From the NCBI GenBank assembly GCA_965178125.1, contig OZ237735.1:2108001-2172000 (forward strand): 64,000 bases of DNA. Direction: 5' to 3'. A program made the position numbers and the translations under genes. Position 1 is the first letter of the stretch; each line of letters begins with the position of its first letter. The stretch comes from Bilabrum cf. latius. Its lineage: Eukaryota. A model generated the notes under the pieces. It saw nothing but the letters and a program-made list of their open reading frames with translations, was not told the origin of the DNA and made no database searches. Shown here piece by piece: positions 1-64,000 of the stretch.

Positions 1-1661
1 GCCAGGCCCCGGCGGTGGCTCACCCGAACATCGCTGCGCTCCTCTCCAGCACAGCTCCGCCGACATCCAGCGCTGTGCCTCGCTCCTCCAGAGCACGGCA
101 GGTTGCTTCGCCTAGCGATGCCAAGCGCAGCGTCCGCAAGCTGCCAAAGTACACCAGGGAATGCTTCGTGAGGCCGAAGATCAACGCGCATCCGGACGTG
201 CCTGCGGATTATCTGAGCGATGATCGCCTGCTGAAGGGGTCTGGAAGGCTACATCCGCAACAAATATGCACCCTCAAGCACTGGATGGCGGACAGAGATC
301 ACTGGGAGAAGCCGTACCCGACAGAGGCCGAGAAGCACGAGCTCAGTCGGAAATGCGATCTGAAGCTCACGCAGGTGTCCGACTGGTTCCGCAACGAACG
401 CAAGCGGTTGTGGCTACCGCTGATGCGCCAGCTTGGCAAGATTCCCGCCAACGGCTCCCACCTCGCGATCATGGGGTCGGCGCGGAGGAGCAAGGGGTCT
501 TCATCCTCTGGCTCCAGGTCTGGAGCTTCGAGGAAGCAGTCACGCAGCAGCGCGGCAGCCAGGCAAAAAGCGCTAGGAGCTGCTGCGTCCGAGTTTCCCA
601 CTGCGTCAATGCATAGCCAGGGCCCAAGTATGGACATGGGGCAGAGCCAGGCACTCGCGGCCGCGCCCCAGTCCAGGGTCGGCAGGACCAGGACGAGGTC
701 TGACGCAGCCTGTAAGCCCAAATTGGCCTTCACTCCAAGTAGTATCACCACGCGTACGGAGGCACTGGCCACGAAGTAGCGCAAGGCCAGGCCCAGGGCA
801 GCAAGCACAGCTGCGCTGCATGCTAGCAGCACACGGCAAGTGGGAGCCGGTGGGTTCGGCATCGCAGGCACACTGCAGCCGCAGCCGACGCTACATTGCC
901 CGGCGGCCAGTGACCCGATCATCAGTGGATCGAGCGTCCGCGCAGCGCAAGAGGCGCTGCTGATGGAGACTCCCGGCGGAAAACTTGCGGCAGGTCTGCA
1001 GCCGGGCGGCCTCTCGACTCCAACTCCCGGCGTCGCCGGGGGCACGACATCCGCCGGTGCACAGTCTTCCTCGTCGTCGTCGTCTTCCTCGTCTTCCACC
1101 ACGCCGCTGGCATCGTTCTCAAACGTTGCTGTACTCGCTGCCATGTACCCTGAGGGGCCTGCAGCGCGCTCGATGGCGGCAGCTCAGGCATCATCGAGCG
1201 GTGGCCCGGGTGCTTGGGCCGGAGGCATGCACCAATCGGCTGCCCGAAGCAGCAGCTCGACAGTGTCTGAGCCTAGGTCCAACCCGCAGCAAGACTCTGG
1301 TTCCTCGACGCCAGTTGGACGAGCTAGTACCAGCGATGACATCGGCCACGGTGGCACCTCGTCCCAGGCGGTGGGCTCTTCTGCAGGGCCTACCAGCCCC
1401 GCGGGAGACCACGACAAGAAAGGCGAATCAATCGGAACAGCAGTGGCGATGGCTCTCTCCAGCAAGCATTCTGCTGCATCGTCAAGGCGGTCATCAAGAG
1501 GATCTAAGCGGCCGAGGCCTCAAGAATTGTCCCAGGGTTCACAAGCAGGTGGTGACAAGGCTGGCACTGAGCCAAGGCGAACCAGCGTTCTGGCAGTGGA
1601 CCCGCGAGCAGGAAAGCGTTCACGAACTACATCTCTTGCTGCAACAGAGGCGGGCAACTGA
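1..1661 (+). CDS. TALE-class (KN/PYP-type) homeodomain transcription factor, 5' partial, with long Ser/Ala/Gly-rich C-terminal region; reads through TAG 777-779
   Basis: LKHWMADRDHWEKPYPTEAEKHELSRKCDLKLTQVSDWFRNERKRLW carries the TALE PYP loop and WFxNxRxR helix 3. ORFs 15-779 and 840-1661 share one frame separated only by TAG, and the frame ends at TGA 1659-1661. Confidence 0.88.
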
Positions 1662-1959
1662 GAACTAATTTGAATACTCTGCGTGTAGTAATTGATCGTG
1701 TCGCTCTTCGAGTATGAAAACAGGCAAAATGTACGAAGCAGCACACAACTGGACTGCCCAACGGAAGCATCTGATAGTCCGACGAAACTAATCGTTTCTA
1801 CACGACAGACAAGTTATCCATGCACCCAGCCATTCGAGAAGTTGCAGTTGGCACGCCACAGCGGAACCACTGCCAGTGGCCTGGTGACTGTGTCCGCGGC
1901 GCCTTTCCAGGAGTTGCCCGTTCCAACATCAGCATCATTGCTAAGCTTGCCGCACCAGG

Positions 1960-62300: not shown

Positions 62301-64000
62301 GTAGCACTGACAAGAGCGCTGGATATGGTAATTCCAGCGGTCTGAACATCAAAAATGCTCACACGCACGAAGGGTGAGGGCAGGAACAGCTCGGTCTGGC
62401 CAACAAGCGCACTGCTCCAGCGGTTGTCAGTGCTCGTCGTATTGTGGAAGATAATGGCACTCTCCTCCGGCTCTGCCAGCTCGTCAGCCACTGCGGTGAC
62501 GGTGACATCCTACCATTGGTCCCAGTTGATTGCCGTGAATGTAAGGAGAGATGGCAGCGCAGTGATCTCAGCAGCCTCGGCAGTGCCTGGGGCGATGCCT
62601 ACAGACACGGTGACGGAGTTGGCGGGCTGCGTATCCAACCGGACCGAGTACGTCGCGGTGAGGGTTCCCTCAATCACGTCGACATCTGCATTTGAGATAA
62701 GGACGTGGCGCTCCTTCTAGATATCATACACGTTCACGGTCACGTTGGGGCCCGGCAGCACGGCAGCGCCGTCATACTCTCCATCGGCGCTAGACACGTC
62801 GTGGGTGATCACGACGGCCTGCTCTTCCACTTCACCCTCAATATCGTCGCTGATGGCCACCACATCCACAGTCACGGGAACGTCATAGTTCCCGGAGTTG
62901 AACGTGATGGTGCGAGGGCTCACCCCGACCTGGCCGGCGCGGGTAACGGGAAGCACGTCAAGAGTAATTGTGACCGCAGCTGCCGGCTCAGAGGCAAGGC
63001 GGACAGTGTAGGTATCGTTGTTGCCGCCCTCCGTGACCGAAAGATCTGACCTGGACAGCAGCACGGAAGCTTTGTCGTCGTCGTAGACATCAACGTTCAC
63101 CACACCTCCGGCAGGCCGCAGGACCGCGCTGTCGTACCTCGTGTCATCACCCCGCACGGTATGCACCAGGCCCACGGTCCAGGGTGACACGGCAGCATCC
63201 ATCGGGTCGTTAGAGGCCATCACGCTCACGGTCACAGTCTGGCTGCAATTCGAGTCAGAGAAGACTGTGAACCCGCCGCTAGTGCTTATCGTCGGGCTCC
63301 CCACTGGCACGCCTCCAACAGCAGACACCCAAGAGATCACGCTAGCAGCAGTCGCGGCGTCTCCACCGGGGCCTCCCGTCATGGAAGTGACGCTAGTGTG
63401 AGTCCAGTCCACAACGATCGGCGTGGCTCCGTCTTGCGGGCAGCTCGCCACGGTGATGTCGTAGGTTACCGCCGCACCGGCTTCCACCACGGCCAGCGAA
63501 ACTTCACTGAAGTCCACTGCGGCGTGCTCGTCATCAAAGACTGCAACACCTACGGTTGGCAGTGATAGTGTGCTTGCACCGTCCACGTAGAGCGGGTCCT
63601 GTGTGAGAGTGACGGAAAAGTCCAGCTGAATGGAAGTGCTGGGCGTTACCCTATCTTCATCGTCGTCCACGGCCTGCAGCTGCACCGACTGCGGGGTGGA
63701 CCAATTGCCAGGGCCGTACGTCAGAACAATCGGCAGAGCACCCCCCGCGTCAGCCGGCAATGTAACGGAGAGCAGGCTGTCTGCCAGCGGGCTAACAGAG
63801 CTGATGGTTACCTGAACGAATGAGGCTGGCTGGCTTGCGAGAGACACGTCGAACGAGGCGGAGTCGCTCCCTCCTCCACCACCCTCCACCACGTAGACGA
63901 ATGACTATGAAACCAACACTCCGCTAGCATCATCATCCAGAAGAGTAAGGTTTACGTAAGGCGATGGAGAGAAGAGCCCAGCCGTGCCAGAGAAATTTCC
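41324..64000 (-). CDS. Giant type I membrane protein B (>7,550 aa, 5' partial): at least 8 Calx-beta/cadherin-like repeats, long GCC2/GCC3 Cys-repeat ectodomain, juxtamembrane domain, TM helix, ~2,500-aa acidic/coiled-coil tail
   Basis: 24 ORF-track fragments lie in one frame and the junctions checked are TAG. FTxxNWNxPQTVxVTAxDDD repeats at ~60885-64000; CPxGxYC repeats at ~50400-60880; YPVYSKDSLLNTNENFDYGAF...FAFTFTEPGTYVF; TM LIIGVLAGFSLCVALTVLALYYF (~48875-48945). Ends at TGA 41326-41324. Confidence 0.9.

What the first reader, a model, noticed from the sequence alone, without database searches (positions are those of the whole stretch)
1..64000. Non-standard nuclear genetic code: UAG is a sense codon, most likely Gln
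Seen: every gene in the window is interrupted in frame by TAG and, where checked, only by TAG, with no frameshifts. This holds across frames of 16.5 kb and >22.6 kb and inside the conserved catalytic domain of branching enzyme (32148). Internal alignments point to Gln: (1) gene B GLNRVF*PSD (50621) vs gene A GLNRVYQPSD; (2) Calx-like repeat NWDQW*DVTV (62510) vs NWNMPQTVVV/DWNVPQKV/NWSTPQSV; (3) gene A ARRL* (21291) vs gene B ARRLQ; (4) ARC*LCPAG (60656) vs STCQLCPAG; (5) ANLT*L (55340) vs NNLTQR. Minor discordances: * aligns with E at 30663 and S at 28866. Established: UAG=Gln with UAA kept as stop corresponds to NCBI table 15 and is reported for few nuclear genomes, e.g. the fornicate Iotanema spirale. 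Inference: this GC-rich, intron-bearing protist may be an independent, unreported origin.
Basis: partly seen in the sequence, partly recalled or inferred. Interest (0 to 1): 0.96.

Follow-up and report, generated by a model that had tools for sequence, protein, structure and literature searches.

The report
Protist nuclear code reads UAG as glutamine
This GC-rich piece of a protist chromosome is written in a rare variant genetic code in which the stop codon UAG encodes glutamine and UGA ends the genes, and two related organisms share that code.

Summary
With TAG read as sense, the longest frame grows from 777 aa to 5560 aa and to more than 7558 aa. Reading TAA or TGA as sense gives at most 777 and 1020 aa.

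In 17,442 in-frame codons there are 127 TAG and 0 TAA, and all 10 frames end in TGA.

The window is eukaryotic. Three GT..AG introns are spliced out in run contigs that still carry the TAGs unchanged.

Orthologues do:
- **Close relative** (94% identical): 8 window TAGs are read through, as Q six times, L once and H once. Seven of 8 internal ORF ends sit exactly on a window TAG.
- **Second relative, L001** (73–77% identical): it is also TAG-interrupted. Of 26 TAG sites, 15 pair with Q.
- Gln beats the next residue by 8 and 18 log10 likelihood units.

UAA's role as a stop is not shown, only that it is not sense. The lineage is unnamed. It is not opisthokont in a branching-enzyme tree, does not resemble Iotanema or Amoeboaphelidium, and no matching report was found.

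The parts
14325..31007 (-). Gene A. A 5560-codon frame with 62 TAG, ending in TGA. It encodes a giant cysteine-rich surface protein: signal-peptide-like start at codon 47, Ephrin_rec_like repeats, a hydrophobic membrane-span-like stretch and a long coiled-coil tail (the start, span and tail are read by eye from the translation).
   Evidence: Run X5 contig 9 covers 15000-27849 with 0 differences, which includes 50 of the TAGs.
41324..64000 (-). Gene B, a paralogue of A. More than 7558 codons, 5'-open at the window edge, with 40 TAG, ending in TGA. It has Calx-like repeats, Ephrin_rec_like repeats and a coiled-coil tail.
   Evidence: L001 holds an orthologue of its last 2040 codons.
31350..34068 (-). 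Last and main exon of the 1,4-alpha-glucan branching enzyme gene (CBM_48, Alpha-amylase, Alpha-amylase_C). It has in-frame TAG at 34062-34064, 33996-33998 and 32148-32150, and ends in TGA.
   Evidence: X5 contig 14 covers 31174-34066 with 0 differences.
34069..34722 (-). 5' part of the branching-enzyme gene. Introns lie at 34069-34191 (123 nt), 34393-34476 (84 nt) and 34568-34722 (155 nt), each GTGAG...CAG. Exons 34192-34392 and 34477-34567 lie between them.
   Evidence: Joints in X5 (all three) and in X7 (two). Splice sites were read. The spliced frame stays open.
32148..32150 (-). TAG in the catalytic domain of the branching enzyme (codon 664 of the frame).
   Evidence: It pairs with Gln in P0004 (98% identical), P0006 (75%) and P0083 (70%), and with Gln in L001.
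16572..19967 (-). Five gene-A TAGs that a close relative reads through. 19965-19967 = Q, 18279-18281 = Q, 17733-17735 = H, 16794-16796 = Q, 16572-16574 = L.
61931..62512 (-). Gene-B TAGs in the Calx-like repeats. 61991-61993 and 61931-61933 pair with Q in the close relative. 62510-62512 sits in a family-wide Q column.
   Evidence: At 62510-62512, Q appears in 156 of 209 alignments to distant homologues.
4964..9973 (+). 1669-codon frame with 10 TAG, ending in TGA. It encodes a Ser/Ala-rich protein with no Pfam match.
10705..13722 (+). 1005-codon frame with 5 TAG, ending in TGA, with no Pfam match.
34987..37134 (-). 715-codon frame with 7 TAG, ending in TGA. It looks leucine-rich and repeat-like and has no Pfam match.
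3..1661 (+). TALE homeobox gene fragment (Homeobox_KN), 5'-open, with 1 TAG, ending in TGA.
2471..4282 (+). Class I/II aminotransferase exon. The Pfam profile is matched only from position 83, so upstream exons are likely. The frame holds 3 TAG and ends in TGA.
39276..41267 (-). Frame with a weak reverse-transcriptase match (17.6 bits, below Pfam's cut-off of 29.6), 7 TAG, ending in TGA.

Best explanation
The window is nuclear DNA of a GC-rich (about 60%) protist with spliceosomal introns. Its translation system reads UAG as glutamine.

What is shown:
- UGA is the working terminator.
- UAA is not used as a sense codon. Whether it terminates or is simply unused is open.
- TAG makes up about 15% of Gln codons (127 TAG against 532 CAG and 199 CAA).
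- TAG sites turn over between relatives as a synonymous codon would.
- At least two related organisms share the code.

What is inferred from how other UAG-only codes are thought to work: a tRNA-Gln with anticodon CUA, derived from tRNA-Gln(CUG), together with a release factor eRF1 that no longer recognises UAG. Neither could be looked for here.
For: TAG is sense:
- Frames reach 5560 and more than 7558 codons only when TAG is read as sense. Reading TAA or TGA as sense gives at most 777 and 1020 aa.
- In frame there are 127 TAG, 0 TAA and only the 6 terminal TGA in 17,442 codons.
- Four TAGs are kept in both copies of a 94%-identical A/B segment.

The window is eukaryotic and expressed:
- It carries a TALE homeobox, a GH13 branching enzyme and Ephrin_rec_like giant proteins.
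- Three GTGAG..CAG introns are removed in contigs of run X5 (three joints) and run X7 (two joints), which belong to two studies. X5 contig 14 then runs 31174-34066 with 0 differences across three TAGs. X5 contig 9 runs 15000-27849 with 0 differences across 50 TAGs.

The residue, close relative(s):
- Nine ORF fragments give 2294 aligned columns at 93.9% identity.
- The 8 window TAGs read through pair with Q, Q, L, Q, H, Q, Q, Q.
- Log10 likelihood is -5.4 for Q and -13.5 for the next residue, H.
- Seven of 8 internal fragment ends fall exactly on a window TAG, and the eighth falls on a window CAG.

The residue, second relative L001:
- It gives 2646 columns at 73-77% identity, and is itself opened from 423 aa or less to 2044 aa by TAG=Q.
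- The 12 window TAGs pair with Q five times, and once each with K, R, D, H, A, V and G.
- The 14 L001 TAGs pair with window Q ten times, and once each with K, H, D and P.
- Log10 likelihood is -22.7 for Q and -40.4 for the next residue. True Q is itself conserved at 62% in these alignments.

Other points:
- The TAG at 62510 lies in a column that is Q in 156 of 209 alignments to distant homologues.
- TAA is not sense. At the CAA/CAG ratio about 47 TAA would be expected and 0 are seen.
- All 10 window frames, and the L001 frame that has an end, stop at TGA.
Against: - Internal paralogue alignments do not single out Gln. K, A, E, S and R are as good or nearly so, and at the strictest filters S or R lead.
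- In the near-identical A/B segment the two informative TAGs face GAA (Glu) and TCG (Ser). A contig of the relative's run X10 also reads G at 28867, that is TCG. It may be the orthologue of B.
- Summed over six Calx-repeat TAG columns, distant homologues rank K and P above Q.
- 13 of the 34 orthologue sites are not Q.
- No tRNA gene lies in the window or in L001. No genome is held, so tRNA-Gln(CUA) and eRF1 were not seen.
- The tool marks run X5 as 'RNA? (probably DNA)'. Its RNA nature rests on the spliced joints.
- No peptide evidence exists.
- No frame ends in TAA, so table 15's second stop is unconfirmed.
Confidence: 0.93

Rival explanations
1. UAG is a sense codon but stands for a residue other than Gln, for example Glu, Ser, Leu, Lys or His. 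UAG=Leu is reported in a rhizarian and UAG=Ser in Scotinosphaera.
For: - The paralogue sites give TAG/GAA and TAG/TCG.
- The calibrated paralogue test cannot separate Q from K, A, E, S and R.
- One orthologue site is L and two are H.
Against: - Orthologue likelihoods put every other residue at least 8 log10 units (close relative) and at least 17 log10 units (L001) behind Q.
- The non-Q partners are scattered (K, R, D, H, A, V, G, P, L). That is expected from ordinary replacement at 73-94% identity.
- In the close-relative alignments H is the commonest replacement of true Q, at 5 of 112.
Confidence: 0.03
2. UAG is ambiguous. It is read as Gln inside genes but also ends some genes depending on context, as in Condylostoma or Blastocrithidia-type codes.
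For: In two frames a TAG lies just before the TGA: 3 codons before in the 715-aa frame and 10 codons before in the aminotransferase frame. The window holds too few genes to exclude TAG termination elsewhere.
Against: - All 10 frames reach a TGA.
- The branching-enzyme C-terminus ends at the same residue as its 98% orthologue, at TGA.
- TAGs are spread along the whole length of genes A and B, tails included.
Confidence: 0.06
3. The TAGs are not translated. On this view the frames are pseudogenes, the TAGs lie in introns, or they are edited in the RNA.
For: None found. No raw RNA reads were available, only contigs.
Against: - Chance or decay would also bring TAA, TGA and frameshifts, and none occurs in 17,442 codons.
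- Contigs that have the real introns spliced out keep the TAGs with 0 differences.
- TAG positions are shared with a relative at 7 of 8 ORF ends.
- The proteins stay conserved across the TAGs.
Confidence: 0.01
4. The window is from a bacterium or a phage that uses code 15, as crAss-like phages do.
For: Code 15 is documented in phages (PMC9523058, search listing and abstract only).
Against: - Spliceosomal GT..AG introns are removed in contigs.
- The genes are a homeobox gene, a eukaryote-type branching enzyme and a reverse-transcriptase-like frame.
- There are no tRNA or Rfam hits.
- The best named homologues are all eukaryotic.
Confidence: 0.005

Closest known systems
Iotanema spirale (Fornicata, Caviomonadidae): UAG=Gln with UAA kept as stop (PMC5304391 and PMC9161772, passages read)
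   Same: Only UAG is reassigned, it goes to Gln, and the organism is not a ciliate.
   Different: - In Iotanema UAA is described as the dominant stop. Here 10 of 10 frames end in TGA and TAA is not seen at all.
- Iotanema is known only from a transcriptome. Its eRF1 has a changed GTS motif, which could not be checked here.
- No sequence comparison with Iotanema was possible.
Ciliates with UAG=Gln only: Protocruzia tuzeti and two phyllopharyngean lineages (PMC11687900, discussion passages read)
   Same: The codon table is the same (NCBI table 15 type).
   Different: The window is 56-64% GC. It holds a contiguous stretch of more than 64 kb with genes of 16.7 kb and more than 22.7 kb, 84-155 nt GT..AG introns and a frame with a weak reverse-transcriptase match. 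From my own knowledge, these are not traits of ciliate macronuclear DNA. Ciliate membership was not tested by phylogeny.
Amoeboaphelidium protococcarum (aphelid): UAR=Gln (cited in PMC5304391, PMC6299283 and PMC11687900; original paper not held)
   Same: A stop-to-Gln change in a non-ciliate.
   Different: - Both UAA and UAG are said to be reassigned there. Here TAA is 0 of 17,442 in-frame codons.
- Amoeboaphelidium genomes are about 40% GC (Table 1 of PMC10608142), against about 60% here.
- The window's branching enzyme falls outside opisthokonts.
Other UAG-only codes: rhizarian exLh (Leu) and Scotinosphaera (Ser) (PMC11687900 and PMC5304391, passages)
   Same: UAG is uncoupled from UAA.
   Different: The residue differs. 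Leu and Ser are rejected here by the orthologue likelihoods. No green-algal or plant sequence stood out among the best hits.

Membership tests
NCBI table 15 type nuclear code (UAG=Gln; UAA and UGA stops) | UAG occurs in frame inside conserved, expressed genes | tested here: met
   127 TAG in six frames. One lies in the branching-enzyme catalytic domain. The TAGs are unchanged in spliced contigs.
NCBI table 15 type nuclear code (UAG=Gln; UAA and UGA stops) | UAG columns correspond to Gln in orthologues | tested here: met
   Q at 6 of 8 sites (close relative) and at 15 of 26 sites (L001, both directions). Q is best by 8 and 18 log10 units.
NCBI table 15 type nuclear code (UAG=Gln; UAA and UGA stops) | UAA is not a sense codon | tested here: met
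   0 TAA in 17,442 in-frame codons, where about 47 are expected from the CAA/CAG ratio. The L001 frames also contain no in-frame TAA, since they run stop-to-stop with only TAG reassigned.
NCBI table 15 type nuclear code (UAG=Gln; UAA and UGA stops) | UAA acts as a terminator | tested here: inconclusive
   0 of 10 window frames end in TAA; all end in TGA. Too few genes were available to tell.
NCBI table 15 type nuclear code (UAG=Gln; UAA and UGA stops) | UGA acts as a terminator | tested here: met
   10 of 10 frames end in TGA. The branching enzyme ends where its 98% orthologue ends.
NCBI table 15 type nuclear code (UAG=Gln; UAA and UGA stops) | A tRNA-Gln with anticodon CUA and an eRF1 changed in UAG recognition | not testable with these tools
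   No tRNA gene in the window or in L001. No genome is held for the window.
NCBI table 6 type code (UAA and UAG both Gln) | UAA is used in frame as Gln alongside UAG | tested here: not met
   TAA 0 against TAG 127 in frame. Reading TAA as sense as well does not lengthen the giant frames.
Ambiguous stop/sense codes (Condylostoma, Blastocrithidia type) | The reassigned codon also ends genes | tested here: inconclusive
   No frame needs a TAG stop. Only about 10 gene ends were seen, and two TAGs lie 3 and 10 codons before a TGA.

The most novel reading that the evidence does not exclude
A so far unrecognised clade of GC-rich, non-ciliate, non-fornicate, non-opisthokont protists has evolved UAG=Gln on its own, with UGA as effectively the only stop and UAA unused. 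At least three lineages have been sampled:
- the window's organism;
- a relative about 8-11% divergent in DNA;
- the L001 organism, at about 75% protein identity.

A single-gene tree hints that the clade may be related to stramenopiles. Long genomic contigs already exist, so this would be a non-ciliate UAG-only code with genomic DNA in hand, in which the decoding tRNA and eRF1 can be read directly from a genome.
Probability: 0.45. Interest if true: 0.8.

Novelty: new member of a known kind. Interest (0 to 1): 0.7.

Why it matters
Nuclear genetic-code changes are rare. Cases where UAG and UAA have parted ways are rarer still: the papers read here list a rhizarian, Iotanema, Scotinosphaera and a few ciliates.

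For Iotanema and the rhizarian the mechanism is still a prediction, because only transcriptomes existed. Here the code is seen in long genomic contigs and in at least two related organisms. A genome-wide look could therefore:
- find the UAG-reading tRNA and the eRF1 changes;
- date the switch within a clade;
- test whether UAA has fallen out of use in a GC-rich genome.

There is also a practical point. Standard gene callers shred this organism's genes. The database holds its relatives' proteins only as ORF fragments that stop at TAG. Annotation of such data must therefore use the right code.

Tried and rejected
**Calibrated paralogue test.** I used all 82 TAG sites alignable within and between five frames. 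Residues were masked at random (30 replicates, 9037 calibration points) to learn what each residue looks like when hidden. The test excludes hydrophobic and aromatic residues but cannot separate Q from K, A, E, S and R.

**Distant-homologue column scores.** For six Calx-repeat TAGs these are not decisive. K and P rank above Q overall, and only the column at 62510 is clearly Q.

**Variants of the 10%-divergent run X10.** The table of other letters was cut to 40 rows, with 1404 not shown. Most rows shown came from gene B's paralogous segment laid on gene A, so the table could not be used for codon-exchange counts.

**RNA holders.** No RNA holder is listed for the stretch. Expression rests on spliced contigs only.

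**First search for relatives' fragments of gene A.** The word-based search returned only 3 hits, because 8000 low-complexity candidates crowded it. The exhaustive search added 2 more.

**Naming the organism.**
- Cluster look-ups gave no names.
- Two searches for an EukProt accession prefix found nothing.
- The aphelid idea was dropped because Amoeboaphelidium is about 40% GC.
- The green-alga (Scotinosphaera) idea was dropped because no green-algal hit stands out and Ser is rejected.

**Prior reports.** Searches found no GC-rich non-ciliate UAG=Gln organism other than those named in this report. The library lacks most subscription journals, and supplements were closed.

**tRNA and Rfam scans.** The scans of the window and the tRNA scan of L001 found nothing.
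Full report
**1.

Under the standard stops the window has no frame longer than 777 aa. Reading TAG as sense opens these frames:
- 14325..31007(-), 5560 aa with 62 TAG;
- 41324..64000(-), more than 7558 aa, running off the window, with 40 TAG;
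- five others of 663 to 1669 aa.

The control reassignments do nothing comparable. TAA-as-sense gives at most 777 aa and TGA-as-sense at most 1020 aa. Adding TAA to TAG does not extend the giant frames.

In six frames totalling 17,442 codons there are 127 TAG, 0 TAA and only the six terminal TGA. Over whole reading frames of the window, TAG occurs 141-184 times, TAA 32-95 times and TGA 211-328 times per 21,333 codons. So TAG is as common in frame as out of frame, while the other two stops are purged. All ten frames examined end in TGA.

**2. What the window is**

It is eukaryotic nuclear DNA at 56-64% GC. Pfam finds:
- a TALE homeobox;
- a class I/II aminotransferase exon;
- a branching enzyme with CBM_48, Alpha-amylase and Alpha-amylase_C;
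- a weak reverse-transcriptase match;
- Ephrin_rec_like cysteine repeats in both giant proteins.

Genes A and B are paralogues. Both are giant surface-type proteins with a membrane-proximal conserved region and a long coiled-coil tail. They share a 2018-nt segment that is 93.7% identical.

No tRNA or Rfam family is present. No whole genome is held for the window.

**3. The TAGs are in spliced RNA-derived contigs**

I laid contigs of four public runs on 15000-34900. Three joints lie at the 5' end of the branching-enzyme gene, all three in run X5 and two in run X7. The two runs belong to different studies.

The skipped pieces are 34069-34191, 34393-34476 and 34568-34722. On the coding strand each begins GTGAG and ends CAG. 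With them removed the frame stays open upstream through further exons.

The same X5 contig then covers 31174-34066 with 0 differences, which includes the three in-frame TAGs of this gene. Another X5 contig covers 15000-27849 with 0 differences, which includes 50 TAGs of gene A.

The tool labels X5 'RNA? (probably DNA)'. I take the precise removal of three canonical introns as the sign that these contigs derive from RNA. That is an inference. Run X10, a relative about 8-11% divergent, spans the introns unspliced.

**4. Which amino acid: what did not work**

I aligned all TAG sites that have any paralogous partner (82 sites). I calibrated by masking known residues at random (9037 points).

The result does not single out Gln. 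Q, K, A, E, S and R lie within about 3 natural-log units of each other, and S or R lead under the strictest filters. Only hydrophobic and aromatic residues are clearly excluded.

In the near-identical A/B segment four TAGs are shared by both copies. The two informative sites face GAA (Glu) and TCG (Ser).

Column scores from about 100 distant Calx-domain homologues are also indecisive overall. The exception is the TAG at 62510-62512, which sits in a motif column that is Q in 156 of 209 alignments.

**5. Which amino acid: orthologues decide it**

*Close relative(s).* The protein collections hold ORF fragments of one or more close relatives, called with the standard code and therefore cut at TAG. 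There are nine fragments: P0004, P0129-131, P0133-135 and P0239-240. They align to the window over 2294 columns at 93.9% identity.
- Eight window TAGs are read through by the relative, as Q, Q, L, Q, H, Q, Q, Q.
- Using the substitution table from the same alignments, log10 likelihood is -5.4 for Q and -13.5 for the next residue (H).
- Seven of the eight fragment ends that are not the true gene end fall exactly on a window TAG. The eighth falls on a window CAG.
- The relative's genes are therefore interrupted by TAG at the same places.

*Second relative.* A metagenome contig, L001, carries a branching enzyme 77% identical to the window's and, upstream, the orthologue of gene B's tail (73% identical over 1972 columns).
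- L001 uses the code too. Its longest standard frame is 431 aa, open at the contig end (423 aa within what becomes the long frame). With TAG=Q it has a 2044-aa frame with 13 TAG, ending in TGA.
- Twelve window TAGs pair with Q five times in L001, and once each with K, R, D, H, A, V and G.
- Fourteen L001 TAGs pair with Q ten times in the window, and once each with K, H, D and P.
- True Q is conserved at 62% in these alignments, so 15 of 26 is what a Gln codon should give.
- Log10 likelihood is -22.7 for Q against -40.4 for the next residue.
- No TAG position is shared between the window and L001. That fits free exchange with CAG and CAA.

*Branching-enzyme catalytic-domain TAG (32148-32150).* It is Q in homologues of 98%, 75% and 70% identity.

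**6. The other stops**

TAA is not a sense codon. With CAA:CAG at 199:532, about 47 TAA would be expected beside 127 TAG, and none is seen. TGA ends all ten frames and the L001 frame.

Whether TAA terminates or has simply fallen out of use cannot be told from ten gene ends. Whether TAG ever terminates is also not excluded. Two frames have a TAG 3 and 10 codons before their TGA.

**7. Mechanism**

Shown: UAG is kept in transcripts and corresponds to Gln.

Inferred from the literature on UAG-only codes (PMC5304391 and PMC9161772, passages read): a tRNA-Gln(CUA), one mutation away from tRNA-Gln(CUG), reads UAG but not UAA, and eRF1 has lost UAG recognition. Neither gene is in the window or in L001.

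**8. Who is it, and is it known?**

The best named hits of the branching enzyme are all about 60% identical.

In a quick maximum-likelihood tree of 33 sequences chosen from the 120 hits listed plus one further cluster member:
- the window, its 98% relative and its 75% relative form a clade (SH-aLRT 100);
- that clade lies outside the opisthokont group (99);
- it sits next to the one stramenopile in the tree, Cafeteria (98).

This is one gene with thin sampling and flagged composition bias. It is a hint only.

Comparison with known cases:
- Amoeboaphelidium (UAR=Gln) is about 40% GC (Table 1 of PMC10608142).
- Iotanema uses UAA as its dominant stop.
- Per PMC11687900 (discussion passages), the known UAG-only nuclear cases are a rhizarian (Leu), Iotanema (Gln), Scotinosphaera (Ser), Protocruzia and some phyllopharyngean ciliates (Gln or Leu), and one ciliate with UAA=Lys and UAG=Glu.

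Eight full-text searches found no report that fits a GC-rich non-ciliate with UAG=Gln. The library lacks most subscription journals and I could not see supplements.

**9. Verdict**

The code is real and is UAG=Gln, with confidence about 0.93. It is the known table-15 type, so the kind is not new. The lineage appears to be new for this code, but it could not be named. I therefore file it as a new member of a known kind, with interest 0.7.

Noticed in passing
window 15000-34900 (runs X1-X8): Sequence identical to the window (0 differences over 11-13 kb contigs) turns up in runs filed under four different coded organism labels from four studies, all dated 2025. The organism may be a co-cultured, associated or contaminating protist rather than the named subject of those runs.
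   Followed up: no
window 28700-30720 and 57050-59070: Genes A and B share a 2018-nt segment at 93.7% identity, while the rest of the two genes is far more diverged. This suggests recent gene conversion or partial duplication. Four TAG codons lie at the same places in both copies.
   Followed up: partly
window 37413-38966 (-): A 517-aa frame without any TAG holds about 17 tandem copies of a 14-residue unit (GAAWGRPPGEEGTE). Long frames are also open on the opposite strand (37699..38814 and 37818..38906), so it may be a repeat array and not a gene.
   Followed up: no
window 34987-41267 versus L001 6135-7166: In L001 the gene-B orthologue is followed after about 1 kb by the branching-enzyme gene. 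In the window three frames lie between them: the reverse-transcriptase-like frame, the repeat array and the 715-aa leucine-rich frame. This looks like an insertion in the window's lineage or a loss in the other.
   Followed up: no
window 34723-37060 (run X5 contig 14): The 5612-nt spliced contig of run X5 continues about 2.3 kb upstream of the branching-enzyme exons. By its length it would cover the 715-aa leucine-rich frame, but the laid stretch ended at 34900. If so, two adjacent genes lie in one RNA-derived contig, through overlapping transcripts, read-through or an assembly join.
   Followed up: no
window 34192-34900 (-): The branching enzyme has an N-terminal extension encoded by short 5' exons. 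By eye it resembles a starch-binding (CBM20-like) module. This was not tested against Pfam.
   Followed up: no
L066 1259-1261: A 1953-nt metagenome contig at 67% GC has a single in-frame TAG in its branching enzyme, at a Glu in the GGE-x-x-L-x-F segment just before the NEF-x-HPEW motif (E in the query too). It could be an error, a pseudogene or another organism with a reassigned UAG.
   Followed up: partly
window 31010-31173: In run X5 the contigs stop at 31009 (5' side of gene A) and resume at 31174 (3' side of the branching-enzyme gene). A 164-nt intergenic gap is left uncovered. That fits transcript ends and very short intergenic spacing.
   Followed up: no
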